DNA from: a bacterium
GTDB lineage: Bacteria; SAR324; JACQKK01
Direction: 5' to 3'
NCBI GenBank assembly: GCA_965240465.1
Contig: OZ251219.1
Coordinates: forward strand, 1,216,001-1,280,000
DNA: 64,000 bases
Below the pieces are notes generated by a model. That model ran no database searches, was not told where the DNA came from, and worked only from the letters and a program-made list of their open reading frames with translations. Positions 2,374 to 62,738 of the stretch are shown here, piece by piece. How positions within the stretch are numbered: the first letter of the stretch is position 1; each line of letters opens with the position of its first letter. The translations under genes and the position numbers were made by a program.

Positions 2374-2406
2374 TGTTCCAACAGCTAGAGGCTACGTGCT
2401 TAGGCT

Positions 2407-2469
2407 CTACTAGACACGCTGCTACTAGACACGCTGCTACTAGACACGCTGCTACTAGACACGCTGCTA
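2407..2469. repeat. Tandem repeat, 15-bp unit CTACTAGACACGCTG x4
   Basis: Read directly from the sequence. Confidence 0.95.
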
Positions 2470-2599
2470 AACGCTACTGGGCTTGTCCCCCCCGAGCTAT
2501 CCTGCCCCACCTGCTCCCCTCCTTTGCTGCTCTCCTCCTTTGCTCCTCCCCTCGCCATGCCCCTCCTGCCCTTAGCAGAAAGCTGCTGTTTAGCAATCA

Positions 2600-2641
2600 C
2601 AATGAGACCGCAATGAGACCGCAATGAGATCGCAATGAGAC
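2600..2641. repeat. Tandem repeat, 11-bp unit CAATGAGACCG x~4
   Basis: Read directly from the sequence. Confidence 0.9.
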
Positions 2642-2646
2642 TAGGT

Positions 2647-3096
2647 TTAGAAGTGGGTGCGTTTGAGGTCAGACGCCAATTTTTGCCATTCGGCGACTGC
2701 TTCTTCAGGCAAGTCCCGATAGCTAGACACTCGGCGATTAAATTTGGCACCTTCGTCTTGGTTCAATCTCAGCAAACGGAAGGCTTCTTCCACATCGCCT
2801 ATGCGTAGCGAGTTAATAGCGGTCAGCCGATCTTTCACTTTGGGTGTAAAATCGCAGAGTTCAACATTGACTTCTCTGTTACAAGAGAGGGAAAAGGACA
2901 GCACTGCCCCAGCCAAGCAAACGAAGCATTTATCATTTTTATGATTGTATTCATGCCAGAATTCCATTCTCAGTTCATACTCATTATCTTCTTGTACCAG
3001 CTGGAGGTCTCCAATGGCTATATCAAGCAGATCTGAAGGTTTGGCATCTAGGAATCTTTTTGATTTTTCGGTTGAGAAATCTAATTCAATATCCAT
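2647..3096 (-). CDS. Hypothetical protein (149 aa)
   Basis: ATG with AGGA-like RBS, globular composition, CFVCLAGAV motif; family not recognised. Confidence 0.7.
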   Translation of the reverse strand: MDIELDFSTEKSKRFLDAKPSDLLDIAIGDLQLVQEDNEYELRMEFWHEYNHKNDKCFVCLAGAVLSFSLSCNREVNVELCDFTPKVKDRLTAINSLRIGDVEEAFRLLRLNQDEGAKFNRRVSSYRDLPEEAVAEWQKLASDLKRTHF

Positions 3097-3206
3097 GGTT
3101 TCCTAAAAATAAAATAAATCGCTTAAATTAAACTATAGCAAGCTAACAGTAAAGAGTCAGACTATACAATACATTTTTCTACTGCCCCAGACAATTTATT
3201 TGGCAT

Positions 3207-3316
3207 GCAAGCTGATAAGCCCGCAAGCTGATAGCCCGCAAGCTGATAAGCCCGCAAGCTGATAAGCCCGCAAGCTGATAAGCCCGCAAGCTGATAAGCC
3301 CGCAAGCTGATAAGCC
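3207..3316. repeat. Tandem repeat, 16-bp unit GCAAGCTGATAAGCCC x~7
   Basis: Read directly; one copy has a 1-bp deletion. Confidence 0.95.
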
Positions 3317-3358
3317 GACAGGCTGACGATCCGATTTGGTGCAGGCAGTGTGCCATAT

Positions 3359-4303
3359 TTAACGCATCCAGGGAGTTGCCAACAAAGGATGAAAATAGCT
3401 GAGGAATTTTCTACAGCTATTTTCCGAAACGAAAGCTAGGTTAAGAGTTAGCATCAGCAGGTTAAAGAGTAGTGTATGCAAGATGATTCCCACTCCCAAA
3501 TGTACCACTACCGCCAGTAGTAAGGAAAAAACGCGGAGCTTGGGTAACCAAACAAAAATCGGATGTAGTATTTGAAACAATATGATCCCGATACTAAATA
3601 CCATCAATTTGGGTGCATTTATTATCCAGGATACTTGATCGGCGTTCAGCCAGTTTATTTGTTCAATTCGCCCCATTTTTTGTGATTGCAAGGGGCTCCA
3701 GAAGATTTCACCGAAGGCGAAATCGGTGGTAAGCAGTATCAGAAAGGAATGGAAATAGATGATGCAAAGATGGATTTGTAGGGCTCTCATCATCATGTTG
3801 CCCCAGATGAGGGGGTGATTTTTTGGGGGGTGAGGGATAGTCTGCTTGAGGGTGACTTTTGCGATTCCTCTGCGGGGTATAAAGGAAAGATATTTGGCAC
3901 AGGGCATTAGGCTCAGGTAGAACAAGGACACGGTAAGCAAGCCATCTAGGTTGGTCACCATAGCGGATTGGTAGTGCATGTAGACGAGGTGGAAAAATAA
4001 AGCCAAAGGACCAGTGAGCCAAGTAGCTAATCCTAGTAGAAATAAGATTGCGATCAATAGTGCTAGTGAGTAGAGGCTCCAGACCCAGAAAGGACTAGTG
4101 CTGGCTCCTAGCAAGCCGATGTTCCAGCTCAGCCCAGATACATCGGCGATTTCTTTGGGGAGGGCAATATATCCCAGCTGAAGGTCCATTCCCAGTATCA
4201 GCCAGCGATAAAGGAAAATGCTTCCAACACATACTCTCATCAAGGCGGAGGTGGCCTCGGCAGTGGGTTTGTTCCATATTTTCGTTAAGCGATAGGTGAA
4301 CAT
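3359..4303 (-). CDS. HTTM-domain membrane protein
   Basis: Multiple TM helices with HTTM-like motifs (LMRVCVG, RALQIHLCIIYFHS, HLGVGII). Confidence 0.7.
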   Translation of the reverse strand: MFTYRLTKIWNKPTAEATSALMRVCVGSIFLYRWLILGMDLQLGYIALPKEIADVSGLSWNIGLLGASTSPFWVWSLYSLALLIAILFLLGLATWLTGPLALFFHLVYMHYQSAMVTNLDGLLTVSLFYLSLMPCAKYLSFIPRRGIAKVTLKQTIPHPPKNHPLIWGNMMMRALQIHLCIIYFHSFLILLTTDFAFGEIFWSPLQSQKMGRIEQINWLNADQVSWIINAPKLMVFSIGIILFQILHPIFVWLPKLRVFSLLLAVVVHLGVGIILHTLLFNLLMLTLNLAFVSENSCRKFLSYFHPLLATPWMR

Positions 4304-4330
4304 GGTTAGAACGTATTCGGGTTTAGAAAG

Positions 4331-5068: not shown

Positions 5069-6526
5069 CTACTCAGGAGAACCAGAGGAAGCACGAGGCA
5101 CGATCTTCCATATCTGCCCCCTTTGATGTGCCAGCAAATAGAGCTCCCCAAGGCTGTCTTCTGCAAAGGAAGAAATATGTAGCTCGGTCTCCAACAGCAA
5201 CAATGGAGTACGCAATGGAGTACGCAATGGAGTACGCAATGGAGTACGCAATCCCAACGACCTAGCAGGAATACCACGAATACGACCCGAAACATAATCG
5301 GCAAATAAATAGTACCCAGCCATCCCAACCAGCTCTCCCCCCCGATATACATACCCGCCCGTAATAGAAGCATCAGGTCCGTGAGGGTACTCAGCGATCG
5401 GCAGGCGTAAGTTCGCCCGAGAGCACTTCCTTGGCGGACGATAGCAAAGACTACCCTCCATTCTAGACCAACCATAATTTCCCCCGCCCTCTATCAAATT
5501 GACCTCCTCCCGATGACTTTGTCCGACATCAGCAGCCCAAAGATTCCCGTTCTGGCGATCAAAAGCCATCCGCCATGGATTGCGTAGCCCAAAGGCCCAA
5601 ATCTCAGGACGAGCCGAGCGATGCCGAACAAAGGGATTGTCCGCAGGAATGGCATAGGGCTTTCCCTTTTGCGATTTGTCAATGTCTAACCGTAAAATAC
5701 TGCCCAGCAAACTAGATAAATTCTGACCATGACCAAAAGGATCGCCCTTATAACCACCATCGCCTAAACCCAAATACAATTTGCCATCAGGACCAAACAA
5801 CAATTGCCCGCCATTGTGATTATCATAAGGCTGCTTGATTTCCAATAAAACCTCCACAGCACCACGAGGACGCAAAGTCCTAGGATGCAACCTAATACGC
5901 GATAATTCAGTACGACTAGGATTAGACCGACTGCCATACAAAAATAACCATCCGTTACTGGCAAACTTAGGATGCAAAGCCAACGAAAGTAATCCCCGCT
6001 CTCCCCCATAACTGATGCGTGATCGCCAATCCAAGATCACCCGACCAGCACGATCTCCCCCCCCCAGCCGAACCCTTCGGACTAGACCCGCTTGCTCGCT
6101 GATTAACCACTGCTTATCAGGGAGGGGTCGCATATCGGTAGGCAAGCTCAAGGGCGGAGCGACCATCTGCTTGATGCCTATCTCTGAGGGAGTAGTCTTT
6201 TTAGTTTTTGAGGAAGTAGTCTTTTTAGTCTTTGAGGGACTGGTCTTACTTGTCTTGGTGGAAATTGCGGGAGCTGCGGGCTTGGTGGAGATTGCGGGAG
6301 TAATTGCGGGAGCTGCGGGCTTGGTGGAGATTGCGGGAGTAATTGCGGGGGGCTTGGTGGAGATTGCGGGAGTAATTGCGGGCTTGGTGGAGATTGCGGG
6401 AGTAATTGCGGGCTTGGTGGAGATTGCGGGAGTAATTGCGGGGCTGGGGGGGGAGTGGGCTGATAACAACATTGCAGCACCGACTACGATCAAGTTAGGC
6501 ATCAAGTTAGGCATCAAGTTAGGCAT
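5069..6526 (-). CDS. PQQ-dependent glucose/sorbosone dehydrogenase family protein
   Basis: GERGLLSLALHPKF, NHNGGQLLFGPDGKLY, GLRNPWR and GGNYGW motifs; in-frame repeats MPNL x3, PAITPAISTK and PLRT x4. Confidence 0.9.
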   Translation of the reverse strand: MPNLMPNLMPNLIVVGAAMLLSAHSPPSPAITPAISTKPAITPAISTKPAITPAISTKPPAITPAISTKPAAPAITPAISTKPAAPAISTKTSKTSPSKTKKTTSSKTKKTTPSEIGIKQMVAPPLSLPTDMRPLPDKQWLISEQAGLVRRVRLGGGDRAGRVILDWRSRISYGGERGLLSLALHPKFASNGWLFLYGSRSNPSRTELSRIRLHPRTLRPRGAVEVLLEIKQPYDNHNGGQLLFGPDGKLYLGLGDGGYKGDPFGHGQNLSSLLGSILRLDIDKSQKGKPYAIPADNPFVRHRSARPEIWAFGLRNPWRMAFDRQNGNLWAADVGQSHREEVNLIEGGGNYGWSRMEGSLCYRPPRKCSRANLRLPIAEYPHGPDASITGGYVYRGGELVGMAGYYLFADYVSGRIRGIPARSLGLRTPLRTPLRTPLRTPLLLLETELHISSFAEDSLGELYLLAHQRGQIWKIVPRASSGSPE

Positions 6527-8102: not shown

Positions 8103-8567
8103 CTAAAAAAGCTTCTCCCAGTGTTGTAAATCCGCTTGCACCTGACGCTTCTGGGCTGCCGTCAACTTTGGGGAACGAGGCTTCCTATCCACACGAAGCA
8201 CGCTGGCTAAAATCCAAAATCCGCCCAAGGCTATAAATAATATCGGCAACAACCAAACTACCCATCCCCGAGGAGATCGCAATACCCACTCCCCATAACG
8301 AGAAACAAAATAGGCTCTAATCTGCTCCTCACTCTGTCCCTCACGAACCATCCGCTCCACCTGACCGCGAATCTGCAACGCAAAAGGAGCATTGGACTCC
8401 CATACCGAAATCGCCTGACAAGTAGGACAACGCAATGATCGCGAAATCCGCTTCACCTTATCCCCAACAACATCGCCTCCCCAAGCCACGGGGGATGCCA
8501 AACTTAACCATCCGCTCCCCAAAAGGATCGCTAGCAATCTGGCTGATCGATAACATGAAACGCTCAT
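8103..8567 (-). CDS. ccmH: Cytochrome c biogenesis protein CcmH
   Basis: LRCPTCQAISVWESNAP and YFVSRYGEWVL motifs. Confidence 0.92.
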   Translation of the reverse strand: MSVSCYRSARLLAILLGSGWLSLASPVAWGGDVVGDKVKRISRSLRCPTCQAISVWESNAPFALQIRGQVERMVREGQSEEQIRAYFVSRYGEWVLRSPRGWVVWLLPILFIALGGFWILASVLRVDRKPRSPKLTAAQKRQVQADLQHWEKLF

Positions 8568-9223
8568 TTTAATGCTCCTATTTGTCTGAATAGTAAATGA
8601 GGGATGCTGGGCGAGGGAGGGTGAGCGAGGGCAAGGGCAAGGGAGGGAGAGGGCGAGGGGGCAGCGAGGGGCAGCTCAGGGGGTGCTATGGTGAATAATA
8701 CTTGGAAGTATTTATCCAGAATTTTTCTATCTAGCGGTCCAGTATGTTTTCCCACCACGATGCCCTTAGAATTGATGAAAAAGGTTTCTGGGATTCCAAA
8801 GAGGCCGTATTTAAGTGCCATATATCCTTTTGCTCCATCCATAGCTAGGAAGTACTTTTTGTTGAATTCATTAGCAAAATCTCGGGCTGCCTTAGGAGTA
8901 TCCTGCACGGCTACTCCGATCATCTTCACACGCAAGCCATACACCTCATAGGCTTGGGAAAGCACTAGGGCTTCTTGACGACAAGGCTTACACCAGCTAG
9001 CCCAAAAGTTCATCATGTAGGGCTTGCCTAACAGGGATTGAGAAGAAATCTTCTCTTGGGTGCGAAATTCACGTAATTCAAAGCTCGGGGCGGTTTTTCC
9101 CATCAGTGGCGAGGATGGCTGGGCAGTAGGTTTTACCAAGGAGAAGGCGAGTAGGGCTATAAAGCCCAAGAGGGGAATGCTGATCAGCCAGAAGGGGAGG
9201 ATGGCTAGGGGATCTTTTTTCAT
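8564..9223 (-). CDS. ccmG: Thiol:disulfide interchange protein CcmG/DsbE (TlpA family)
   Basis: NFWASWCKPC and GIPETFFI motifs, N-terminal TM, position in the ccm operon. Confidence 0.85.
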   Translation of the reverse strand: MKKDPLAILPFWLISIPLLGFIALLAFSLVKPTAQPSSPLMGKTAPSFELREFRTQEKISSQSLLGKPYMMNFWASWCKPCRQEALVLSQAYEVYGLRVKMIGVAVQDTPKAARDFANEFNKKYFLAMDGAKGYMALKYGLFGIPETFFINSKGIVVGKHTGPLDRKILDKYFQVLFTIAPPELPLAAPSPSPSLALALAHPPSPSIPHLLFRQIGALK

Positions 9224-9243
9224 AAGACAAGTTATGGTGTGTG

Positions 9244-11238
9244 TTATAGGGCTGTTTTAATGGGAGGGAGGGGGAGGGGGGGGCTGCGAGGGGCATGTAG
9301 CAGTGCCAACAGGGTACCTAGTGCCAGAAATGGAAAGGAGAGCCAGATCATCAGTACCAGTGGATTTAACAATACTCTCAAGGTTATGGAGTTGTCATCG
9401 TTTTCTGAAGTTAGCACGATGTAGAGGTCTTGTGTAAGGGTGCGGTGGATGGCGACTTCGGTGAGTGGTTCGGGTTGGGTGGAATAGAAGCTACGGGCGG
9501 GTTTAAGAGTTTTGATTTTTTTTCCATTGCGAAAGATTTCCAATTCGGCATAGCGGAGGCGTACATTTTGCTGCTTTTCTTCGTTGAGTTGGCGGAAGTT
9601 TAGTTGATAAGCACCAGCCTCGGCTACCTGACCTGGGAGCATGGTAAAGAAGAATTCCTGCTTAAAGAAATTCCCAGCTAGTCCGATGAATAACACTACC
9701 ACTCCCAGATGAACCAAAGCACTGCCCGATTTTTGGCGATCGCGTTTGATGACATCCCTTAAGGCACGCGATAGGCTTAAGGAGCGTTGGCGAGCGAGGA
9801 GACGCACATGCTTGAAATAATCCGATAACAAGATGCTGGCAGTAAATCCTGCAATGGCGAATATCAGCAAGGCTGCCGCCGAACGTACTCCGCTGGCGAA
9901 GCCACTAGCTCCTACTAGAATGGCTACCAGAAAAGGTATTCGTGCATTGTGTAGTAATAGTTCTCCGCTGGAGCGATGCCAAGCTGCGAGATGTCCTAAG
10001 CCCATTAGCAACAGCAAGCCAATTCCTAGGGGAGCGGTTATCGTGTTAAAGAAGGGTGCCTGAATGGAGATCCTGACTCCCACTAGGGCTTCTGCCAGCA
10101 ACGGAAATATGGTACCCAGCAATACCGTGAAGGCTAATCCCATCAAAAGAAGGTTGTTTAACAGGAAGGCACTTTCGCGGCTGAGTAGATGATCTGCGGT
10201 ATGCTGAGATTCCAGCTGCTTAATTCTCCAACATAGCAACCAGAAGCTGCCAATCAGTATCACTGCTAAGAAGCCCAAAAACAGGGGGCCAATCTCGGAT
10301 TCTGCAAATGAATGTACCGAATTCAGTACTCCAGAGCGAACGATGAAGGTCCCCAAAATGCTGAGTGAAAAGGTGATAATAATTAAGGCGAGGTTCCACA
10401 CTTTCATCATGTGGCGTCGCTGTTGCAAAATCACGGAATGCAAAAACGCGGTGCTAGTGAACCAGGGTAATAAAGCCGAATTCTCTACGGGATCCCAACC
10501 CCAGTAGCCTCCCCAGCCAAGTTCTTCATAAGCCCATTGCCCGCCTAGCATCAAACCGCAGGTCAGGGAAAACCAAGCTACCAGCGTCCAACGGCGGGTA
10601 CTATTTACCCAGTCATTGTTGAGTTTGCCACTGATGAGGCTGGCAATCGCAAATGCAAAGGGTACGCTAAATCCAATATAACCCAAATACAGCATAGGAG
10701 GATGAATAGCCATAGCTGGATGTTGTAACAAGGGATTTAAACCACGACCATCGGTGGGAACGGGATGTTGCCAAACAATAGGATTGTTCCAAGTAAGCAA
10801 CAACAATAACAAAAATAACTGAATGGCATTCAAACAAACCAAAATCCAAGGATAAGTCTCATCATGCTTATCACGATGCAAATAAGCGGTCGCCGCCGCA
10901 AACCCCGATAGTATCAACTCCCAAAAGAGCAAAGAACCCTCCCGACCACCCCAAAAGGCAGCAAACTTGTAAAATAAGGGCAAATCTAAACTGGAATTCT
11001 CCCACACAAATCGCAGTGAAAAATCATCGGTGATCAAGGCACGCCACAAAACTAGGCTGGATAACAACACCAAACCAAAATTTAAATAAGTCGCCCGCCT
11101 AGCCGCTAAAACCAAATTCCCACTGTTACGATGTACCCCTAAAACTGGCATCCAAGTGCCACAAAAACTCACTCCCCACGCGGCTACCAAACTAAAATAC
11201 CCCACCTGATTCCAAAACTCGGTGCTTAATAATATCAA
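9244..11238 (-). CDS. ccmF: Heme lyase CcmF
   Basis: WGGREGSLLFW, GLNPLLQHP, HPPMLYLGY and WGGYWGWDPVEN motifs. Confidence 0.97.
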   Translation of the reverse strand: MILLSTEFWNQVGYFSLVAAWGVSFCGTWMPVLGVHRNSGNLVLAARRATYLNFGLVLLSSLVLWRALITDDFSLRFVWENSSLDLPLFYKFAAFWGGREGSLLFWELILSGFAAATAYLHRDKHDETYPWILVCLNAIQLFLLLLLLTWNNPIVWQHPVPTDGRGLNPLLQHPAMAIHPPMLYLGYIGFSVPFAFAIASLISGKLNNDWVNSTRRWTLVAWFSLTCGLMLGGQWAYEELGWGGYWGWDPVENSALLPWFTSTAFLHSVILQQRRHMMKVWNLALIIITFSLSILGTFIVRSGVLNSVHSFAESEIGPLFLGFLAVILIGSFWLLCWRIKQLESQHTADHLLSRESAFLLNNLLLMGLAFTVLLGTIFPLLAEALVGVRISIQAPFFNTITAPLGIGLLLLMGLGHLAAWHRSSGELLLHNARIPFLVAILVGASGFASGVRSAAALLIFAIAGFTASILLSDYFKHVRLLARQRSLSLSRALRDVIKRDRQKSGSALVHLGVVVLFIGLAGNFFKQEFFFTMLPGQVAEAGAYQLNFRQLNEEKQQNVRLRYAELEIFRNGKKIKTLKPARSFYSTQPEPLTEVAIHRTLTQDLYIVLTSENDDNSITLRVLLNPLVLMIWLSFPFLALGTLLALLHAPRSPPLPLPPIKTAL

Positions 11239-11267
11239 TTCTGATGCCCTTGCTTTCTCATGCTCAA

Positions 11268-11337
11268 CTAACGGATTCTGCTAATGGATTCTGCTAACGG
11301 ATTTCGCTAATGGATTCTGCTAATGGATTTCGCTAAT
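11268..11337. repeat. Tandem repeat, 13-bp unit CTAAYGGATTYYG x5
   Basis: Read directly; lies between ccmE and ccmF. Confidence 0.9.
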
Positions 11338-11339
11338 AA

Positions 11340-11789: not shown

Positions 11790-11833
11790 TTATTTTTATA
11801 AAGGTTCAGTTAGTACCTATCTCTAGTTTTAGA

Positions 11834-12553: not shown

Positions 12554-12728
12554 TCGTCCAACACATCTCACATCTCTAACAAATCTCTAACACATCTCTA
12601 ACAAATCCCCGCCCAGATCGCCCTGAAAAACCTGACATATTCTAGTCTGAAACCATCATAAAAGATATGCTAGACCTCAATTGGATAAAAAACCTATCAA
12701 ATGCTTGACTAATGGCTTGACTAATGGC

Positions 12729-17683: not shown

Positions 17684-17714
17684 GACTGCTCCATACATAC
17701 TCTTTTCTGCCGTG

Positions 17715-53432: not shown

Positions 53433-53596
53433 TGGGTACCTTTACATCTATGAATAATCACTTGCCCTGCCGTACATCTTCCAGCAATTGCGGTGCTGGG
53501 CAATATATTATAAAACCAGTTAGCAAAAGATTATTTTCATTCGTACTGGTATATCAAACAGATGTCCATTTTGTTGCATTTGCAATTATCATTGTT

Positions 53597-53658
53597 GGCT
53601 TGCCAGATTCTTCTGGTTTGCCAGATTCCTCTGGTTTGCCAGATTCTTCTGGCTTGCC
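53597..53658. repeat. Tandem repeat, 18-bp unit GG(C/T)TTGCCAGATTC(T/C)TCT x~3.5
   Basis: Reverse complement of the unit at 49015-49207. Confidence 0.9.
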
Positions 53659-53834: not shown

Positions 53835-53905
53835 GAACGCACTTTGCTAATCATTAAATAAGATGTGAACGACATCTGCATATATGATCCACCAGATGCT
53901 ACAAT

Positions 53906-53998
53906 CATCTACCAAAGGCATCTACCAAAGGCATCTACCAAAGGCATCTACCAAAGGCATCTACCAAAGGCATCTACCAAAGGCATCTACCAAAGGCA
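53906..53998. repeat. Tandem repeat, 13-bp unit CATCTACCAAAGG x7
   Basis: Read directly; ends at the RBS region of the next gene. Confidence 0.96.
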
Positions 53999-54002
53999 AA
54001 AA

Positions 54003-56363
54003 ATGGATAAAACAGTACTAGTGCTAGATGAAAATCCCATCGTACACAGGGTGATCGCCACGGCTCTGGAAGGAGGGGCAGTGGCGGTGCATCATGAATT
54101 TAATCCCAGCCGTTTTCTGGAAAAAGCCCAATCCATCTTGCCAAACGTGATACTACTCAGCGCGCTGGATTATGATACCGAGTTTTCCATGCATTCTCGT
54201 TTTGCAAAAGCAGAAAAACTGAAGAACATTCCTCGGGTAGCCCTGCTGAGCCCTAAAACTCCGCTTGATGAAAACTTGAAAAAAAGCCTGTCCCTATCGG
54301 GAATACTCCTAAAACCATTGGAAGTCTCCCAAGTACAACAAGAAATAACCAAACAACTAAAGGTGAACTTTCAAACTCCCGATGACTTAAGCGAAATACG
54401 CCTGCAAGCAGTAGGCGACATCATGGATGAAGAAGTATCCAAAATGCTGGAATCTGTCGGAGCTCCATTGCCAACTGACCCGCAAGCCCCTCCCCCGCAA
54501 GCCCCTCCCCCACAGGTCTCTCAGCTCCCCACCGAGGATGTCTATCAACTGGGAACTGAGGAAATGGAAGTACCACCAATTACTACGCCTCCTGATTTCG
54601 CACCCGCCAGCACTGCAAACACAGGTAATCTACCCAATAGCGTCATCGTCCCCGAGGGAGTACAAGCACCTGTCATGCCTGTGGGAGTTCTGCCAGACAG
54701 TATCCCAGACAGTATCCCAGACAATGTTCCAGACAATGTTCCAGACAAGGCTATTGATAAGGTTACTGATAAGGTTACTGATAATGTCATGCCTGTGGTA
54801 TCCTCTGTGGGTGAGAAAAGTAAGGCGGTGATCCGCAGTGTTCCTGCTTTTAAGGCAGACCCACTCACCCCAGATGAAAAACCCATGGATGAGGCCTTCC
54901 CCTACTTGCCCCACGTATATGAAAGCCAATTTGGTAGAGCTCCCGCTCGCGTTATAATTTTTCCAGAGAAAACCATGAATCAGGACAAAACTCGTTCCTT
55001 ACTGCATCTCAAACCTGTCAATCCCCCGCGACCATCGGTGCTGCCGATTAAATCATCGGATGGTCAGCCCTGGATTACTCCGACTACCAATGTTCCCGCG
55101 GGTGTGCTTGATCGGGCATTTGAGGAGGCTCGTAAGCTGAAAGATGAGGAACCGCAAGCTGAAGAGCCAAAAAAATCCGCCACCTCAAAAGATGCTCTTA
55201 AAGATGCTCTTGAATATACTCTTGAATATACTCTTGAAGATACTCATCCGATACCGCCTGAGACTCCAGCTGCTACTTTTAACCCCTTCGGTACTGATAC
55301 GGGCAAAACTGAAGAAAAAAACGAGGAAAATACCGAAAATGTTGCAAGCACTGGAAGCACTGGAAGCACTGCAAGCGACGCAGAAGATGGAGAAGAAGAG
55401 GACGACACAGATTTTCAAACCCAGCCTGCAGCTTTGGCGGCCCTGAAAACACCCAAAACAGAAGACATCAAGGTTGAGCAATTTAAGGAAACGGTGCTAC
55501 GTCCTTTGTCAAAAGATGAGGAATCTTTGGTAGCCCCAACTACAGAAGCCGATGACCAATTTTATGACTCAGCAGAAGTTCAGAAAACCGATATTTCCTC
55601 TTCAGTGGAGGCATCGGAATCGGTGGGAAAGCCAGAGGTAGTGGGGAAGCCAGAGGCAGTGGGAAATCCAGAAGCAGTGAGAATTGATGGTTCTCAGCTG
55701 ACTTTGGAAGATGAAGAACAAGGACACGAAGAATTTATCTTGCTGGGAGTAGAAGAAGATGATGACCTGATAGAACTATCTATCTCTCAAATTAAAAATG
55801 TCACCGCAAAAGGAGATATATTTCCTCATAAAGAAATTATTGAGGCAGAGGAAGTTACTGAGGTAGTAGCAGAGGAAGTAGCAGAGGTAGACTCTCCTGA
55901 GACCACTGGCAATAATTCCTCACCCACAAGCGAGGAAGAACCTTTGGATTTGGATCCTCCTGAGGCGGAGCGGATGATTTCGGTATCGGGAGATAAGGGG
56001 GAGACATATGAGGCGGTCGTGAAAGAGGCAGGTTTGGAAGGGACAATTTTGGATGAAGCAGGTTTGGATGAGGCGGTCGTGGGTGAGGCAGGTTTGGAAG
56101 GGGCAGGTTCGGAAGGGGCAGGTTCGGAAGGGGCAGGTTCGGAAGGGGCAGGTTTGGATGAGGCAGGTTTGGATGAGGCGGATTTGGATGAGCTTAGTCA
56201 AGATGGCGAAATTTCTGAGACTGCCTCGCTAGCGAATTATCTCCTGCCAAAGGATTCTGAGCTTCTGACGGGGGTTTTGGATGATATTATTTCTCAGTCT
56301 ATAGATGATGCCATGCAGGCTCAGGAGTCCAATATCTTGGAGCTGGAAAAGGGGGAAGGCTAA
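54003..56363 (+). CDS. Atypical receiver-domain protein with long acidic/Pro-rich disordered region (RomR-like architecture)
   Basis: KTVLVLDEN...PNVILLS...LLKP receiver fold with the phospho-Asp replaced by Ser; about 650 aa of low-complexity tail; abuts valS. Confidence 0.7.
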   Translation: MDKTVLVLDENPIVHRVIATALEGGAVAVHHEFNPSRFLEKAQSILPNVILLSALDYDTEFSMHSRFAKAEKLKNIPRVALLSPKTPLDENLKKSLSLSGILLKPLEVSQVQQEITKQLKVNFQTPDDLSEIRLQAVGDIMDEEVSKMLESVGAPLPTDPQAPPPQAPPPQVSQLPTEDVYQLGTEEMEVPPITTPPDFAPASTANTGNLPNSVIVPEGVQAPVMPVGVLPDSIPDSIPDNVPDNVPDKAIDKVTDKVTDNVMPVVSSVGEKSKAVIRSVPAFKADPLTPDEKPMDEAFPYLPHVYESQFGRAPARVIIFPEKTMNQDKTRSLLHLKPVNPPRPSVLPIKSSDGQPWITPTTNVPAGVLDRAFEEARKLKDEEPQAEEPKKSATSKDALKDALEYTLEYTLEDTHPIPPETPAATFNPFGTDTGKTEEKNEENTENVASTGSTGSTASDAEDGEEEDDTDFQTQPAALAALKTPKTEDIKVEQFKETVLRPLSKDEESLVAPTTEADDQFYDSAEVQKTDISSSVEASESVGKPEVVGKPEAVGNPEAVRIDGSQLTLEDEEQGHEEFILLGVEEDDDLIELSISQIKNVTAKGDIFPHKEIIEAEEVTEVVAEEVAEVDSPETTGNNSSPTSEEEPLDLDPPEAERMISVSGDKGETYEAVVKEAGLEGTILDEAGLDEAVVGEAGLEGAGSEGAGSEGAGSEGAGLDEAGLDEADLDELSQDGEISETASLANYLLPKDSELLTGVLDDIISQSIDDAMQAQESNILELEKGEG

Positions 56364-56365: not shown

Positions 56366-59059
56366 TTGAGGAGCTATGTTCCCGCCGAGATTGAGCCACG
56401 GATCTACGAAGAATGGTTGCGGGGTAATCATTTTGCTCCTGTTGGGGAGCGAGGAGAGTTAGAGAAGGGTTCTAAATATTTTTGCATTGTTGTTCCTCCC
56501 CCGAATGTTACTGGTTCTCTGCATTTAGGGCATGCTTGGGATAGCACCCTACAGGATATTCTCGTTCGCTGGATGCGGATGGATGGTTGTCCTACGCTTT
56601 GGCTGCCGGGGACTGACCATGCGGGGATTGCTACTCAGTGGATGGTGGAGTCTCAGTTGCAAGAAGAGGGATGCAGTAAGGAGCAGCTGGGGCGAGAAGC
56701 ATTTTTGAAGCGGGTGTGGCAATTTAAGGAGACATCGCAGCAAAATATTACTAATCAATTGAAGCAGCTGGGGGTTTCTTGCGATTGGGGTCGGGAACGC
56801 TTTACGCTGGATGAGACTCTTTCCCGAGCGGTGCGGTGTGCCTTTGTAAAGCTGTATCAGGCGGGGTTGATTTATCGGGGGCTACGGATGGTCAATTGGA
56901 GTCCTCGTTTGAGGTCGGCAGTTTCTGATCTGGAAGTAGAACATCGTGATGTGCAAGGAAGCATGTATCACCTGCTTTATCCCTTTGAAGATGGTCCCCT
57001 ACCAGATGGTCGTCAGGGGGTAGTGATTGCTACCACCCGACCAGAGACCATGCTGGCTGATGGAGCAGTGGCTTTTAATCCCGCTGATGAACGCTATGCG
57101 GGACTGGAAGAAAAAAACTTGATCCTGCCAATCATAAAACGCAAGCTCCCTTTGATAAAAGATGAACAGGTCAAGCAAGATTTTGGCACTGGGGCAGTGA
57201 AAATTTCGGTGGGGCATGATTTCAATGATTTTGAGATCGGCAAACGACATAACATTCCCGTCTATGAAGTGATGGATAAAAAAGGCTGCATGTGCGGTGA
57301 TATTCCTCAGCGATATCAGGGGCTTGATCGTTATGTGGCTCGGAAAAAGATTGTAGCAGAACTTAAAGAGCAGGGGGTACTAGTGAAAATAGAGCCTCAT
57401 GAGCACTCGGTTGGGTATTGTGGTCGGAGTGGGGAGCCTGTGGAGCCTTGTGTTTCTACTCAATGGTTTGTGAGTACCAAGGATATGGCAATTCAAGCTC
57501 TGGAAGTAGTTAATAGCAGGCGAGTTAGGTTAATCCCTCAATTTCAGGAAAAAATATTCGCTGAATGGATGGATAACATTCAAGAGTGGTGTATTTCGCG
57601 TCAGCTTTGGTGGGGACATCGCATTCCCGCTTGGTACTGTGAGGACTGCAAAGGGGTAACCGTGGCTGAAGACATTCCTAATTGTTGTCAGCATTGTCAA
57701 TCCAAGCAAATAGAGCAGGATAGGGATGTACTGGATACTTGGTTTAGCTCGTCCCTGTGGCCTTTCAGCGTTATGGGTTGGCCTGAGGAAACTTCCGACC
57801 TAAAAACCTTCTTTCCCACTACGGTGCTAGTTACTGGGTATGACATCCTATTCTTCTGGGTAGCCCGAATGATAATGATGTCCTTACAGCTGTTGGAGAC
57901 CATCCCTTTTGATGAAGTACTGCTGCACGGCTTGCTACGGGATGAAAAAGGAATAAAAATGTCAAAAACCAAGGGCAATGGACTTGACCCCTTAAAGCTA
58001 ATCAACATCCATGGTGCCGATGCCCTAAGGATGGCTCTGGCAGCTGGCACCAACCTTGGACATGACATGTCGCTGGCGGAAAGCTCTTGTGAGGCGATGC
58101 GGAATTTTGTCAACAAGCTTTGGAATGCCTCTCGTTTTGTTTTGGGTCATAAGGAGCGTCTGGGAGAGCCACCTGCTCTTATGTCTGCTCTTACGTCTGA
58201 TGTGTCTGCTCTACCTGAGTTTCCTTTGTTTGAGGCTTGGATTTTTTCCCGTTTGCAACAGGTGACCGTAGAAACTCGCCAGTTTTTAGAGGCTAGGCGT
58301 TTTAATGAAGCTGCCAAGCTTTTGTATAATTTCGTTTGGCGTGAGTACTGCGATTGGTACTTGGAATCGGTCAAGCCGACTCTTCTTTCGGACAAGGAGG
58401 TGTTTCGGCAGGCGGGGTGGGCGGTATCTCATCAGGTATTGGTGGAGGTGCTGAAGCTATTGCATCCTTTTATTCCCTTTGTGACGGAGCATTTATGGGG
58501 GATCCTCCAGCCTCAGGCAAAACCCCTGATCATGTGTACCTATCCTCAAGGTATGGAGTTAGCTAAGCAGCCTGATAGCTTGCGGCGAACCGCTAAGGAA
58601 GCCGATCGCCTTATCGCAGTGATAAGGGAAGTACGCACCGTCCGCAGTGAGAGCGTAGTGCCTCCTCAGGCGAGGATCCCCGTTCAGATTAGCAGTGCCG
58701 ATGAGGATATTTGTCAGCTACTGGAGCGACACAAAGCCTTATTTATGAATTTAGCCAAGTTGAGCTCGGTGGGATTTGGGGGTCAGGACACCAAAAACTG
58801 GGTGCGTGGAGTAGGAGACGGATTTGAAGTGGCTTTGTGCTTGGAGGGGGTGATGGATACAGCCAAAGAGCTACAGAGATTGGAAAAAGAAAAGATAAAA
58901 TTGTATGCTGAACTTCAGCAAGTGCGTATCAAGTTAGAAAATAAGTTATTTATGAGTAAAGCTCCTCCGCTGGTGGTGAAGAAAAATCGTGAACGCAATG
59001 ATTCTCTGAAAACCCAATTATCTAAGCTAGACCGCAGCTTAAGAAGATTATCCACTTGA
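56366..59059 (+). CDS. valS: Valine--tRNA ligase
   Basis: PPPNVTGSLHLGHA, GTDHAGIATQ, WCISRQLWWGHRIP and KMSKT motifs. Confidence 0.98.
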   Translation: MRSYVPAEIEPRIYEEWLRGNHFAPVGERGELEKGSKYFCIVVPPPNVTGSLHLGHAWDSTLQDILVRWMRMDGCPTLWLPGTDHAGIATQWMVESQLQEEGCSKEQLGREAFLKRVWQFKETSQQNITNQLKQLGVSCDWGRERFTLDETLSRAVRCAFVKLYQAGLIYRGLRMVNWSPRLRSAVSDLEVEHRDVQGSMYHLLYPFEDGPLPDGRQGVVIATTRPETMLADGAVAFNPADERYAGLEEKNLILPIIKRKLPLIKDEQVKQDFGTGAVKISVGHDFNDFEIGKRHNIPVYEVMDKKGCMCGDIPQRYQGLDRYVARKKIVAELKEQGVLVKIEPHEHSVGYCGRSGEPVEPCVSTQWFVSTKDMAIQALEVVNSRRVRLIPQFQEKIFAEWMDNIQEWCISRQLWWGHRIPAWYCEDCKGVTVAEDIPNCCQHCQSKQIEQDRDVLDTWFSSSLWPFSVMGWPEETSDLKTFFPTTVLVTGYDILFFWVARMIMMSLQLLETIPFDEVLLHGLLRDEKGIKMSKTKGNGLDPLKLINIHGADALRMALAAGTNLGHDMSLAESSCEAMRNFVNKLWNASRFVLGHKERLGEPPALMSALTSDVSALPEFPLFEAWIFSRLQQVTVETRQFLEARRFNEAAKLLYNFVWREYCDWYLESVKPTLLSDKEVFRQAGWAVSHQVLVEVLKLLHPFIPFVTEHLWGILQPQAKPLIMCTYPQGMELAKQPDSLRRTAKEADRLIAVIREVRTVRSESVVPPQARIPVQISSADEDICQLLERHKALFMNLAKLSSVGFGGQDTKNWVRGVGDGFEVALCLEGVMDTAKELQRLEKEKIKLYAELQQVRIKLENKLFMSKAPPLVVKKNRERNDSLKTQLSKLDRSLRRLST

Positions 59060-60708: not shown

Positions 60709-60772
60709 TTTGGTATCCTTATTTCTTTTAACCAGGGGGACATCTTCGCCAAAAGGATCGCAACGCCAGCAG

Positions 60773-60856
60773 TGCCCAAGAGAGGACTTGAACCTCCACT
60801 AGTGTTACCTCACTAGAACCCGAATCTAGTGCGTCTGCCAATTCTGCCACTTAGGC
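60773..60856 (-). tRNA. tRNA-Leu-derived copy with CGG (Pro) anticodon; possibly a pseudo-tRNA
   Basis: 84-nt type II cloverleaf, 5 substitutions versus the 62423-62506 copy; anticodon loop TTCGGGT; discriminator A. Confidence 0.8.
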
Positions 60857-60867
60857 TGACAGCCCTC

Positions 60868-60896
60868 ATTATGTCAGGGGAGTTATCAAGCAGCAA
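60868..60896 (-). promoter_or_regulatory. Putative promoter TTGCTG-N17-CATAAT (cassette 1)
   Basis: Identical in both cassettes, immediately upstream of the tRNA. Confidence 0.5.
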
Positions 60897-60933
60897 GTAT
60901 TTGTGTTTTAGTGCTTAATTTATTGTATAGCCA

Positions 60934-62364
60934 TTATTTGATCCCCTTGATGCGTCCGCTCTTGCGAGTATAACTTGCGGGCAATCTTGGTTTCTTTCTT
61001 TTTAACATGTCTTCAATGCTTAATCCCTGTATTACTGGATAGCTTCCAACACTGTCGTGAAACTTTTCCTTGTTTCGGTTGTTTTCCACCGTTTTCATGT
61101 ACTTTTCAAAGCAGATCATTACTCCAGCAAGGGCGTTGAATTCTTTAACCGTGGAATATAATCGCCCTACCGCGTCTGGAGTAACTCCTCCTCCCTTTAC
61201 TTGAATAATGACAGTTTCTTTTTCAGGATTCTTGCCAAAATTGATTGTATAAATTTCCAATACTCCATCAACGCCTCCATCAGCACCTTTATCTCCTGGA
61301 TTGTGGTACATCCCATTGGCTCCGATGTGACCACAGACCCATTTCTCAAATTCAAACTTGTCTTGCTTGGCTAATTCCATGGCTTCTGTGGTGGTTGTCG
61401 GGGTACCATATAATTTTATATTCAGTCCCTGAAAATTACTTGTCAGTCTTTCATTGACTAAACCATTAGAGAATTTGGATATGTCAATGCCGATCCATTG
61501 GCGTTTTAGTTTTTCTGCTGCGTGAAGAGTAGTGCCACAGCCGCAAAAGGGGTCAAGGATGAGATCACCCTTATTTGAAGAAGCCTTAATGATACGCTCC
61601 ATAAGAGCTAGCGGCTTTTGGGTTGGGTAGCCAAGATGCTCTTTTTTACTTTTAATATGAGGAATATCCCAAACGGTGTCAGGTATTTTTCCATTCTTGG
61701 TAAGGTAGCCTGCCTCACCTTCCTGCCTAGTGAAACCAGCACCCCCGTACTTTGCACGTGATAAGGTACTCTTAGCATAAGGGATTAATACATCCTGATG
61801 ATTAAATATGAAGTTTTTACTCTTTGTGTATCTGAATAACACATCATGTTTTTTGGGAAAATCTGTTTCGGTTCTACTCATACTAGGGTAGTGCCAAATA
61901 ATTTCATTCCTAAAATTACCAGCCCCGAAAATAGCATCCATCAAGAGCTTTAGATAATGACTGGCGGTCGGGTCACAATGCAGGTAAATGCTACCCGTCC
62001 CCTTTAGTACCCGATGCATTTGGACCAAGCGGAGTGCCATGTTGATAAGGTAGGCAGGCAGGCTTATCTTGCCAAGTGATTTATTCACCTGATCCGATAA
62101 AGACACAATATCAGCTAGTATTTTTGTTTGAGGACTCTTTTTAAGTTGCTCAATAATCTCTATTTCTGTTTCACCCCAATCCCAAGTGTCCTTGAAGGCC
62201 TCTACCGCTCGGACATTTTCTCTGAATTTCTTAAACGGAAGATTGTAAGTACTATTTGAATTGAAGGGAGGGTCAAGATAGATTAAATCAACGCTTTCAG
62301 TTGGTAATGCCAGTTCATCATTTAAGATGTTTAGACAATCATCAGCATAAAGTTCTTGTTTCAC
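60934..62364 (-). CDS. Beta-class DNA methyltransferase fused to Mrr-like PD-(D/E)XK domain, copy 2
   Basis: Same motifs as copy 1; different central target-recognition segment. Confidence 0.9.
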   Translation of the reverse strand: MKQELYADDCLNILNDELALPTESVDLIYLDPPFNSNSTYNLPFKKFRENVRAVEAFKDTWDWGETEIEIIEQLKKSPQTKILADIVSLSDQVNKSLGKISLPAYLINMALRLVQMHRVLKGTGSIYLHCDPTASHYLKLLMDAIFGAGNFRNEIIWHYPSMSRTETDFPKKHDVLFRYTKSKNFIFNHQDVLIPYAKSTLSRAKYGGAGFTRQEGEAGYLTKNGKIPDTVWDIPHIKSKKEHLGYPTQKPLALMERIIKASSNKGDLILDPFCGCGTTLHAAEKLKRQWIGIDISKFSNGLVNERLTSNFQGLNIKLYGTPTTTTEAMELAKQDKFEFEKWVCGHIGANGMYHNPGDKGADGGVDGVLEIYTINFGKNPEKETVIIQVKGGGVTPDAVGRLYSTVKEFNALAGVMICFEKYMKTVENNRNKEKFHDSVGSYPVIQGLSIEDMLKRKKPRLPASYTRKSGRIKGIK

Positions 62365-62422
62365 GTCCTTATTTCTTTTAACTAGGGGGATATTTTCGCC
62401 AAAAGGATCGCAACGCCAGCAG

Positions 62423-62506
62423 TGCCCAAGAGAGGACTTGAACCTCCACGAGTGTTACCTCACTAGAACCTGAATCTAGCGCGTCTGCCAATTCCGCCAC
62501 TTGGGC
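62423..62506 (-). tRNA. tRNA-Leu(CAG)
   Basis: GCCCAAG/CTTGGGC acceptor stem, CTAGA-TTCAGGT-TCTAG anticodon arm, long variable arm, GGTTCAAGTCC T-arm. Confidence 0.96.
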
Positions 62507-62517
62507 TGACGGTTTTC

Positions 62518-62546
62518 ATTATGTCAGGGGAGTTATCAAGCAGCAA
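62518..62546 (-). promoter_or_regulatory. Putative promoter TTGCTG-N17-CATAAT (cassette 2)
   Basis: Upstream of tRNA-Leu(CAG). Confidence 0.5.
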
Positions 62547-62738
62547 GTATTTGTGTTTTAGGACTTAATTTATTGGCTCGGTATGGTTGATGGCTAGGTG
62601 GTTTAAATTATTTTTATAAGCGTTGACAAAGGGCGTCTTCTGCTGTTGTGATGTGCGTGGGGGTTGAGTTGGGGGGTTGGGGGGTTGGGTGAGTCAGCCT
62701 GTGTACTAGTTATGTAGGACACCTTTATTCCTTAAAGC

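What the first reader, a model, noticed from the sequence alone, without database searches (positions are those of the whole stretch)
2400..62700. Kilobase-scale sawtooth of G/T versus C/A strand skew independent of gene orientation
Seen: the + strand repeatedly drifts from G/T-rich to C/A-rich and then flips abruptly back to G-rich. Approximate flip points are 2.65, 6.15, 8.59, 13.34, 15.86, 17.39, 21.0, 42.19, 53.58 and 58.09 kb. Polarity also reverses within single genes: in ccmF, 9421-9480 has 29 G / 6 C but 11161-11220 has 4 G / 24 C. It imprints proteins (Pro-rich termini of PyrD, CcmG, CcmF, PpdK), and repeat arrays and G/C runs often lie near flips. Known: bacterial skew normally switches only at ori/ter, and a C-rich to G-rich flip is the origin signature. 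Inference: a strand-asymmetric mutational process radiating from many fixed sites (frequent nicks or breaks with resection or re-synthesis, or dispersed initiation), possibly the same process that seeds the tandem repeats.
Basis: partly seen in the sequence, partly recalled or inferred. Interest (0 to 1): 0.7.

Follow-up and report, generated by a model that had tools for sequence, protein, structure and literature searches.

The report
Gene-anchored G-to-C strand skew switching
In this small bacterial genome and its sister species, most genes start G-rich and end C-rich on their own coding strand even at silent codon positions, a strong and conserved pattern of unknown cause that follows gene borders, with no sign of extra replication origins or DNA break sites.

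Summary
The kb-scale skew flips are real.

They are not independent of genes. Coding-strand skew at silent sites falls from 5' to 3' within genes. That polarity is unchanged by reverse-complementing, so both gene orientations give the same + strand sawtooth, and every kind of gene border gives a C-to-G flip. Of 90 strong upward flips, 74% lie within 100 bp of an ORF border (23% for random positions).

Downward changes are often equally sharp steps inside genes. Their presence and position are conserved in the sister species, although silent sites are near saturation.

At 4-fold sites G and C swap while A and T stay put, so this is not a plain deamination signature.

The skew is twice as strong at coding silent sites as in intergenic DNA, and it tracks protein hydrophobicity.

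Tandem repeats are a separate matter: the sister genome has the skew but few repeats. I found no motif at flips and no lineage-specific loss among 12 repair or transcription families.

The most likely cause is an expression-linked strand-asymmetric substitution bias. The molecular cause is open.

The scan noted this pattern before in two other windows of this genome.

The parts
9244..11238 (-). ccmF: textbook intragenic polarity. Coding-strand GC3 skew per 300 bp from 5' to 3' runs +0.42 +0.40 -0.10 0.00 -0.32 -0.45 -0.35.
   Evidence: The G001 ortholog shows the same quartile trend (+0.25 +0.08 +0.12 -0.31).
8103..12571 (-). ccmC-E-F-G-H gene run. Overall G-to-C decline from ccmC (+0.61) to ccmG (-0.35), then a sharp restart at ccmH (+0.59, +0.53).
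   Evidence: Upward flip of 0.93 at about 8470-8590, at the 4-bp overlap of ccmG and ccmH.
6150..6300 (.). Upward flip (0.86) near the probable true start of the PQQ-dehydrogenase-like gene. The ORF 5069-6526 is probably over-extended at its 5' end through a repeat array.
   Evidence: the G001 ortholog is 82 aa shorter.
17330..17715 (.). Upward flip (0.88) in the convergent gap between ORF 16890-17411 (+) and ppsA 17715-20102 (-).
   Evidence: ppsA is C-rich on its sense strand throughout (-0.27 to -0.79), as in G001.
20983..26072 (+). guaA plus three downstream genes. The run starts with an upward flip (0.69) at the guaA start and declines from about +0.6 to about 0, with partial restarts at gene starts.
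42085..42260 (.). Strongest upward flip in the window (1.00), between ORF 41123-42085 (-) and the 3' end of truB (42191-43192, -).
42191..48913 (-). rimP-nusA-infB-rbfA-truB gene run. rimP starts G-rich (+0.43); everything downstream is C-rich on the sense strand (-0.2 to -1.0).
   Evidence: Same signs in G001.
38619..40691 (-). pnp: sharp internal G-to-C step near 39690 (jump -0.82), and an upward flip (1.01) at its 3' border near 38660.
27486..29126 (-). Acyl-CoA ligase gene with a sharp internal step near 28310 (+0.43 +0.32 +0.20 then -0.50 -0.08).
53480..53600 (.). Upward flip (0.76) at the border next to the lptG-like gene (52320-53432, -).
53865..56363 (+). Exception: a repeat-laden ORF of unknown family with a rising skew (-0.17 to +0.79). 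No ortholog was listed in the 800 kb of G001 that I sampled.
56366..59059 (+). valS: G-rich on the sense strand throughout (+0.02 to +0.73). The stated flip at 58.09 kb is internal and moderate (0.58).
2373..2647 (.). Moderate upward flip (0.54) in a convergent gap that also holds three short tandem arrays.

Best explanation
The sawtooth is the + strand view of a polarity anchored on genes and, in part, on transcription units. In this genus the sense strand is G-rich in the promoter-proximal part of most genes and C-rich in the distal part, most strongly at silent codon positions. Reverse-complementing leaves that polarity unchanged. Genes on either strand therefore give the same falling + strand skew, and tandem, divergent and convergent gene borders all give a C-to-G flip.

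Shown: the pattern is genome-wide, is shared with the sister species, is absent from two larger-genome family relatives, and is held at similar levels and similar switch points in orthologs although silent sites are near saturation.

Inferred: it is an expression-linked, strand-asymmetric substitution bias kept at equilibrium, with opposite sign near the start and near the end of a gene.

My favoured mechanism is inference only, at roughly one chance in four. Near gene starts and in membrane-protein segments the nascent RNA is poorly covered by ribosomes and the DNA behind RNA polymerase is underwound. The sense strand is then more exposed and loses C. Further along, repair directed to the template strand (Mfd is present) leaves sense-strand G damage unrepaired, so G is lost.
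For: - Gradient within genes. Coding-strand GC3 skew falls by decile from +0.10 to -0.16/-0.18 in genes >=900 bp, in leading- and lagging-strand genes alike. At 4-fold sites only it falls from -0.02 to -0.35. It persists after correcting for codon family.
- Slopes. 73% of 449 genes have a negative slope.
- Internal steps. 116 of 453 genes >=1.2 kb have a strong internal step. Of these, 101 run G-to-C and 15 run C-to-G, with median levels +0.41 then -0.35.
- Location of flips. 74% of 90 strong upward flips lie within 100 bp of an ORF border, against 23% of random positions and 15% of 59 downward jumps.
- Border types. Mean jump is 0.18 at divergent, 0.16 at convergent and 0.08 at tandem borders, but 0.036 where the gap is under 10 bp, which points to a transcription-unit component.
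- Neighbours. Same-strand neighbouring genes correlate (r=0.38); opposite-strand neighbours do not.
- Lineage specificity. The decile gradient and gene-level SD are 0.32 in G000 and 0.30 in G001, against no gradient and SD 0.13 in G008 and G009.
- Conservation in orthologs. Gene-level r=0.73 (n=194) and 5'-half minus 3'-half r=0.55. Quartile-level r=0.58 across 408 genes and 0.62 in this window.
- Conserved step positions. Steps differ by a median of 34 codons in 21 ortholog pairs (relative 0.05 against 0.16 in the null; 0 of 2000 permutations as low). 20 of 29 G000 step genes also have a step in G001.
- Saturation. At 4-fold sites in identical residues the third base is the same in 36% of cases, against 25.5-27% expected.
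- Coding versus intergenic. Excess SD is 0.35 at coding silent sites and 0.17 in intergenic DNA; the controls give 0.10-0.12 in both.
- Hydrophobicity. It predicts G-richness. Genes with >=4 TM-like segments average +0.21 against -0.035. The within-gene correlation is r=0.28 after family correction. The hydropathy of the G008 ortholog also predicts G000 skew (r=0.33, p=0.002, n=89; windows r=0.17, p=0.003).
Against: - Not a deamination signature. At 4-fold sites the two states differ by a G/C swap with A and T nearly unchanged (A .236/.219, C .152/.379, G .291/.108, T .321/.294). Plain cytosine deamination would raise T. A direct preference on G against C, such as selection on the RNA, fits as well.
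- Highly expressed genes. The few I checked (rpoB, rpoC, tuf, fusA, rpsL-rplB) have weak skew, so the effect does not simply scale with transcription.
- Shape of the change. Sharp, conserved internal steps are not what a smooth decay from a promoter predicts.
- Restarts inside runs. Tight junctions still restart sometimes; 8% have a jump above 0.5, for example at the ccmG/ccmH overlap.
- Variance explained. Replication strand plus position explain only about 16% of 300-bp window variance. Most is unexplained between-gene variation.
- No gene-content cause found. No lineage-specific loss among 12 repair or transcription families.
Confidence: 0.75

Rival explanations
1. Selection on the RNA rather than mutation. 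RNA read towards a gene border, whether sense RNA in the 3' part or antisense RNA in the 5' part, is C-rich and G-poor, which is the composition that Rho loads on. RNA read inwards from a border is G-rich and Rho-resistant. Genes would then be insulated from read-through and antisense transcription, and 5' parts would be protected from premature termination.
For: - The state difference acts on G and C themselves, with A and T unchanged at 4-fold sites and similar fold-changes in all eight 4-fold families.
- It is stronger in coding than in intergenic DNA.
- It is reverse-complement symmetric.
- Rho and NusG are present.
- Levels and switch points are conserved in orthologs.
- Membrane-protein segments, where coupling may lapse, are G-rich.
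Against: - It would need selection on hundreds of silent sites per gene in a small, probably low-population-size genome.
- There is no YC-specific context effect.
- Family relatives with the same Rho and NusG show nothing.
- First and second codon positions shift too.
- There is no expression or termination data.
Confidence: 0.2
2. One reading: a gene-independent DNA process radiating from many fixed sites (nicks or breaks with resection and resynthesis, or dispersed replication starts), possibly the same process that makes the tandem repeats.
For: Upward flips have the origin-like polarity (C-rich to G-rich), are sharp, and occur at all three border types, including convergent ones without promoters.
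Against: - Anchors are gene borders.
- Downward changes are as sharp as upward ones and lie inside genes at conserved codons.
- The effect is half as strong outside coding DNA.
- No motif is found at flips.
- There is one ordinary origin/terminus pair.
- Repeats are decoupled: G001 has 0.8% in arrays against 6.6% in G000, with equal skew, and a repeat has no effect on jump size.
Confidence: 0.04
3. A relic: the pattern arose once in the common ancestor of the two species and is now only decaying. The ortholog conservation would then be inheritance rather than maintenance.
For: 4-fold identity of 36% against 25.5-27% expected shows that silent sites are not fully randomised. The window is fully collinear with G001.
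Against: Both species have nearly the same amplitude (gene SD 0.32 and 0.30; 4-fold excess SD 0.30 and 0.28), despite roughly 1.6 substitutions per 4-fold site by my rough estimate. A decaying relic would need an implausibly extreme ancestor.
Confidence: 0.05

Closest known systems
[quoted passage not shown]
   Same: The skew is anchored on genes, has opposite sign at the two ends, is seen at 4-fold sites, extends into flanking DNA, shifts amino-acid use at protein ends, and correlates only weakly with expression. The authors leave both a mutational and an adaptive reading open.
   Different: The polarity is reversed: fungi are C-rich at 5' and G-rich at 3', whereas here it is G at 5' and C at 3'. 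This is a bacterium without RNA polymerase II. Here the effect is much stronger at third positions than at first and second, whereas the paper reports similar size at all positions. Here it often takes the form of a sharp mid-gene step at a conserved codon.
Transcription-associated strand asymmetry in bacteria (excess C-to-T on the non-transcribed strand). Recalled from Francino/Ochman and Beletskii/Bhagwat; the latter was seen only as a reference-list entry in PMC10030826.
   Same: It is anchored on the sense strand, and the G-rich (and slightly T-rich) sense strand near gene starts fits it.
   Different: The known effect is uniform along a gene and is a transition signature. Here the sign reverses within genes, and at 4-fold sites T and A hardly move.
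5'-localised transcription-linked asymmetries and bidirectional asymmetries around CpG islands in human genes (Polak & Arndt; PMC2817419 and PMC2927911 seen as search listings only), and replication 'N-domains' (recalled)
   Same: Sharp upward skew jumps at fixed sites with a decline between them, and asymmetry strongest near transcription starts.
   Different: Those operate at kb-to-Mb scale in mammals and are tied to CpG islands or replication origins. Here the unit is a bacterial gene of about 1-3 kb, and the 3' end carries an equally strong opposite skew.
Replication-associated GC skew with a switch at oriC and ter
   Same: It has the same keto/amino axis and the same C-to-G polarity at upward flips. 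It is present in this genome as a weak background of about +-0.10 at third positions.
   Different: There is one origin/terminus pair only. The local effect is about 3 times larger (gene SD 0.32) and follows genes.

Membership tests
Replication origin-type skew switch | The flip coincides with the global minimum of cumulative GC skew, or with one of a few replication start sites | tested here: not met
   There is a single minimum at about 607,845 and a single maximum at about 1,562,156 of the 1.6-Mb contig. The window (1,216,001-1,280,000) lies inside one replichore. There are 157 upward flips >=0.6 per Mb.
Replication origin-type skew switch | The flips are independent of gene borders | tested here: not met
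   74% of 90 strong upward flips lie within 100 bp of an ORF border, against 23% of random positions.
Uniform transcription-associated asymmetry (sense-strand C-to-T excess) | The skew is defined relative to the sense strand | tested here: met
   The same decile gradient is seen in leading- and lagging-strand genes. Same-strand neighbours correlate and opposite-strand neighbours do not.
Uniform transcription-associated asymmetry (sense-strand C-to-T excess) | One sign along the whole transcript | tested here: not met
   The sign reverses within genes: 101 G-to-C steps among 453 genes, with median levels +0.41 then -0.35.
Uniform transcription-associated asymmetry (sense-strand C-to-T excess) | Transition signature: loss of C is balanced by gain of T | tested here: not met
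   At 4-fold sites T is .321 against .294 and A is .236 against .219, while C is .152 against .379 and G is .291 against .108.
Uniform transcription-associated asymmetry (sense-strand C-to-T excess) | Strength rises with expression | not testable with these tools
   No RNA run is listed. The few genes presumed to be highly expressed show weak skew.
Fungal-type opposite GC skews at gene ends (McLean & Tirosh 2011) | Opposite skew signs at the 5' and 3' ends of genes, seen at 4-fold sites | tested here: met
   Relative to the flat level of relative G008 (-0.2), 4-fold skew here runs from -0.02 at 5' to -0.35 at 3'.
Fungal-type opposite GC skews at gene ends (McLean & Tirosh 2011) | Polarity: C-biased at 5', G-biased at 3' | tested here: not met
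   The polarity is reversed here.
Fungal-type opposite GC skews at gene ends (McLean & Tirosh 2011) | The skew extends into flanking non-coding DNA | tested here: met
   The sense strand is G-rich to about 250 bp upstream of starts, C-rich for about 40-50 bp after stops, and flips mid-gap in divergent pairs.
Motif-anchored skew sawtooth (GGCC-anchored cases noted earlier by this scan in archaeal DNA) | Flips sit on a short recurrent DNA word | tested here: not met
   No 6-mer and no clear 4-mer is enriched within +-100 bp of 210 upward or 180 downward jumps, compared with matched controls. The best raw p is 2-6e-4 over 135-1716 tests.

The most novel reading that the evidence does not exclude
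Silent sites in this lineage record a physical polarity of bacterial gene expression that has not been described. Each gene would be split at a conserved switch point into a G-phase and a C-phase. These would correspond to two states of the transcribing complex, for example before and after ribosome-polymerase coupling, or Rho-resistant against Rho-exposed RNA. The states would be self-reinforcing through the composition they create, and some still unidentified lineage-specific change in DNA repair or transcription would make them visible.
Probability: 0.2. Interest if true: 0.85.

Novelty: new variant of a known kind. Interest (0 to 1): 0.7.

Why it matters
- Bacterial strand composition is taught as a replication signal with a uniform transcription overlay. 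Here a gene-internal reversal is about three times larger than the replication signal.
- It is maintained in two species and absent from their larger-genome relatives. It also shifts amino-acid use and, in some genes, makes proline-rich protein tails.
- If it is mutational, it exposes a position-dependent strand bias of damage or repair along bacterial genes.
- If it is selective, it implies genome-wide tuning of RNA G/C content along genes, for example for Rho surveillance.
- In practice, such genomes will mislead skew-based origin finders and codon-usage or horizontal-transfer detectors.
- The 5'-half minus 3'-half 4-fold skew is a simple statistic that could be surveyed across all genomes.

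Tried and rejected
- **Expression data.** No RNA holder is listed among public runs. Five runs were listed, two hold the stretch, and all are kept as contigs. I laid none of them.
- **Gene inventory**, 12 families across G000, G001 and relatives.
  - Mfd (12 relatives) and Rho, RNase HI, MutS, family-4 UDG, Fpg, TopA and NusG (G001, G004, G008, G009) are present in every genome searched.
  - Family-1 Ung was found in none of 13 genomes.
  - The only RecG hits are the Mfd gene itself, in all 5 genomes.
  - MutY was not found in G000 only.
  - A Y-family polymerase was not found in G000, G001 or G009, and G009 has no skew pattern.
  - None of these separates the two skewed genomes from the unskewed ones.
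- **Motifs at flips.** Nothing convincing.
- **Tandem repeats as cause or partner.** Rejected.
- **Protein composition as driver.** The skew at first and second codon positions of the G008 ortholog does not predict G000 third-position skew (r=0.11, n=89).
- **Amino-acid artefact.** GC3 skew is partly set by amino-acid content. 21 of the 60 genes >=2.7 kb are Asp/Gly-rich paralogs with skew of -0.4 to -0.98, which had made long genes look flat. With 4-fold sites only, or with codon-family correction, the gradient remains. In the other 39 long genes the fall comes later, after about 600 codons.
- **Frame check of my ORF calls.** 1191 of 1202 were best in the called frame, but this is nearly circular because other frames carry stops. 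The ortholog-backed subset gives the same gradient.
- **Two-state idea.** Skew in 600-bp windows is broad and unimodal, not bimodal.
- **Close relatives through the search for related loci.** The best hit was 49% identical, from assorted phyla. Relatives came from the genome search instead.
- **Literature.** Searches for a bacterial precedent (plus passages of PMC10030826) listed none. This is a limited search of open-access text, not proof of absence.

Full report
**Setting.** The window is G000:C1:1,216,001-1,280,000 of a closed 1,599,138-bp genome with 45.4% G+C. Cumulative GC skew has one minimum (about 607,845) and one maximum (about 1,562,156). The window therefore lies in a replichore where the + strand is the leading strand, and the replication skew is weak, about 0.06-0.08 per 40 kb here. 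I called 1202 ORF-based genes covering 88% of the genome, 49 of them in the window. NCBIfam names pyrD, ccmA/C/E/F/G/H, mpl/murC, ppsA, guaA, ppdK, lolA, serC, lysS, pnp, truB, rbfA, infB, nusA, rimP, valS and two adenine methyltransferases. The closest public ValRS outside its own family is at most 49% identical. The genome search finds one same-genus genome (G001, 1.72 Mb, ValRS 61% identical) and family relatives of 2.3-5.2 Mb.

- One-kb GC skew in the window swings between -0.24 and +0.38.
- I measured skew on third codon positions plus intergenic sites with 450-bp flanks. By that measure six of the ten stated flips are strong (0.69-1.00; the 90th percentile of random positions is 0.63), two are moderate and two are weak. 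Eight lie within 100 bp of an ORF border.
- Jumps >=0.6 occur at 157 up / 151 down per Mb in G000 and 134/115 in G001. Relatives G008 and G009 have 5/10 and 12/2. A global shuffle of G000 gives 9/6 in the whole genome.
- The variance of 300-bp third-position skew is 0.153, against 0.023 expected from sampling.
- The shape is less of a sawtooth than described. Upward and downward jumps are nearly equally frequent: 251 vs 242 at >=0.6 and 90 vs 59 at >=0.8. Both are sharp at 75-bp resolution.

**What it is.**
- Oriented by gene, third-position GC skew falls monotonically from the first to the last decile (+0.10 to about -0.17), in leading- and lagging-strand genes alike. First and second positions follow weakly.
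- With 4-fold sites only, the fall is -0.02 to -0.35. It survives correction for codon family.
- A sense-strand fall from G-rich to C-rich reads the same on the other strand. Both gene orientations therefore give a falling + strand skew, and every border type gives a C-to-G flip. That is why the pattern looked independent of orientation.
- 74% of 90 strong upward flips lie within 100 bp of an ORF border (random 23%), while downward jumps lie inside genes (15%).
- The mean border jump is 0.18 at divergent, 0.16 at convergent and 0.08 at tandem borders. It is 0.13-0.15 at gaps of 60-400 bp but 0.036 at gaps under 10 bp. Borders inside probable operons therefore restart less, although some do, such as the ccmG/ccmH overlap.
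- In intergenic DNA the C-rich phase ends about 40-50 bp after the stop codon, the sense strand is G-rich for about 250 bp upstream of starts, and divergent gaps flip in the middle.

**Steps rather than ramps.**
- In 116 of 453 genes >=1.2 kb a single step fits strongly. 101 of these run G-to-C, with median levels +0.41 then -0.35. The step beats a linear trend by more than 4 likelihood-ratio units in 92 of the 116. That comparison favours the step model somewhat, because it has more freedom.
- G001 shows 31 of 108 genes with a step (28 G-to-C); G008 shows 1 of 94.
- The average gradient is thus largely an average over steps at different places. The step codon scales with gene length (slope 0.44, n=101), although detection favours mid-gene positions.

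**Lineage specificity and conservation.**
- The decile gradient and the large between-gene spread (SD 0.32 in G000, 0.30 in G001; sampling alone gives 0.07-0.08) are absent from G008 and G009, which have no gradient and SD 0.13. The 4-fold-only figures agree.
- Orthologs of G000 and G001 share gene-level skew (r=0.73, n=194) and the 5'-half minus 3'-half difference (r=0.55). G008 orthologs do not (r=0.12, n=86).
- At quartile level r=0.58 over 408 genes, and r=0.62 for the 39 window genes. The window is collinear with G001 580-642 kb.
- Among 92 ortholog pairs >=1.2 kb, 21 have a step in both species. Positions differ by a median of 34 codons (relative 0.05 against 0.16 in the null; 0 of 2000 permutations as low). 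20 of 29 G000 step genes have a step in G001.
- Yet 4-fold sites in identical residues match in only 36% of 25,492 cases, against 25.5-27% expected. Silent sites are close to saturation. Equal amplitude in both species argues for maintenance rather than a fading relic.

**Signature.**
- Between G-rich and C-rich neighbourhoods, 4-fold sites change from A .236, C .152, G .291, T .321 to A .219, C .379, G .108, T .294. All eight 4-fold families shift alike.
- Two-fold sites shift C/(C+T) from about 0.2 to 0.45, and G/(A+G) from about 0.56 to 0.22.
- This behaves like independent weights on C and on G. It is not the C-to-T / G-to-A exchange expected from plain deamination. TA skew moves only about 0.1 across jumps.

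**Where it acts.**
- Excess SD is 0.35 at coding silent sites and 0.17 in repeat-free intergenic DNA in G000 (0.30 and 0.16 in G001). In the two controls both classes give 0.10-0.12. The process is therefore concentrated in coding, transcribed DNA.
- Same-strand neighbours correlate (r=0.38 at lag 1, fading by lag 10); opposite-strand neighbours do not.
- Replication orientation explains 6% of window variance. Adding position raises this to 11-16%. Gene identity explains 70%.

**A partial predictor.**
- Hydrophobic proteins and segments are G-rich at silent sites. Genes with at least four TM-like segments average +0.21 against -0.035. The within-gene correlation is r=0.26-0.28, also after codon-family correction.
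- Hydropathy is higher before than after the step in 70 of 101 G-to-C genes, and lower before than after in 14 of 15 C-to-G genes.
- The hydropathy of the G008 ortholog predicts G000 skew as well as G000's own hydropathy does (gene r=0.33, p=0.002, n=89; windows r=0.17 vs 0.16). The association is therefore not just a by-product of mutation pressure on amino acids.
- By contrast, the first- and second-position skew of G008 orthologs does not predict G000 third-position skew (r=0.11).

**What it is not.**
- Tandem repeats cover 6.6% of G000 but 0.8% of the sampled G001 and 3.5% of G008. A repeat in the gap does not change the jump size. The repeat load is a separate, G000-specific trait.
- No short DNA word marks the flips.
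- Twelve repair or transcription families show no loss that separates G000 and G001 from unskewed relatives.
- rpoB, rpoC, tuf, fusA and nearby ribosomal-protein genes have weak skew, so strength does not simply follow expression.
- The flat, very C-rich profile of long genes came from 21 Asp/Gly-rich paralogs. Their third positions are C-rich partly because Asp codons can end only in C or T. The other 39 long genes do fall, but later.

**Mechanism.**
- Shown: a sense-strand-anchored, gene-border-reset, lineage-specific G/C polarity that is maintained at equilibrium.
- Inferred: an expression-linked strand-asymmetric substitution bias with opposite sign in proximal and distal parts of genes.
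- My preferred concrete version is this. Sense-strand exposure where RNA is poorly covered and DNA is underwound causes loss of C. Template-directed repair further along causes loss of sense G. This accounts for the 5' bias, the membrane-protein link and the weaker resets inside operons. It does not account well for sharp conserved steps or for the unchanged A and T.
- The main rival is selection on RNA G/C content, for example insulation of genes by Rho. It fits the G/C-only signature and the symmetry, but it demands selection on very many silent sites.
- Polymorphism spectra and transcript-end maps would decide between the two. I could obtain neither, because no RNA run is listed and the DNA runs are kept only as contigs.

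**Comparison with what is known.**
- The closest described pattern is the opposite GC skew at gene ends in unicellular fungi (PMC3315797; abstract and passages read). It has the reverse polarity and similar strength at all codon positions.
- My literature searches (passages of a 2023 review) listed no bacterial report.
- Earlier notes of this scan describe the same pattern in two other windows of this genome and reached the same basic reading. The present work agrees. It adds the step structure and its conservation, the G/C-swap signature, the coding-versus-intergenic contrast, the hydrophobicity link, the decoupling from repeats, a second unskewed relative, and the gene inventory.

Noticed in passing
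window 46483-47030 (inside nusA, 46441-48192, - strand): A 36-bp tandem array of about 15 copies lies inside the 3' part of nusA and lengthens the protein to 583 aa. The G001 ortholog ORF is about 455 aa, so the array looks specific to G000. Third-position skew there reaches -0.93 to -1.00.
   Followed up: partly
whole genome G000 compared with G001 and G008: Tandem-repeat load is specific to G000: 645 merged arrays covering 6.6% of the genome (12.6% of intergenic DNA). The sampled sister genome has 0.8% and a family relative has 3.5%.
   Followed up: partly
G000:C1, outside the window: MutY was not found in this closed genome at E<=1e-20, although it is present in G001 and three family relatives. 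This might bear on the G000-specific repeat load or base composition. I did not examine it further.
   Followed up: no
G000:C1:261288-261404, 264802-264918, 271375-271494 (outside the window): Three short fragments matching only the C-terminal 40 residues of RNase H, each with a stop codon, lie between four large paralogous genes (256160-271283). The intact rnhA is at 255696-256100.
   Followed up: no
G000:C1 about 310-338 kb, 691-714 kb, 793-810 kb, 886-905 kb, 1344-1355 kb (outside the window): Arrays of 21 large paralogous genes (900-2600 aa) are very rich in Asp (12-23%) and Gly. Their third-position skew is extremely C-rich (-0.4 to -0.98) whatever the replication orientation.
   Followed up: partly
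window 59269-60708 and 60934-62364 (- strand), with tRNA-Pro at 60772-60856 between them: Two adjacent paralogous adenine-specific DNA methyltransferase genes are separated by a tRNA gene. Both best-match a single G001 gene at a non-syntenic place (525 kb).
   Followed up: no
window 53865-56363 (+): An 832-aa ORF with no family match is full of short tandem arrays (periods 9-18). Its skew rises from C-rich to G-rich, the reverse of the usual polarity. No ortholog was listed in the 800 kb of G001 that I sampled.
   Followed up: partly
G000:C1:75760-84694 (outside the window): The ribosomal-protein region looks broken up. rpsL-rpsG-fusA-tuf-rpsJ-rplC and rplB are followed by genes on the opposite strand rather than by the usual long S10-spc run. 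The rplB match carries one TAG within the matched span.
   Followed up: no
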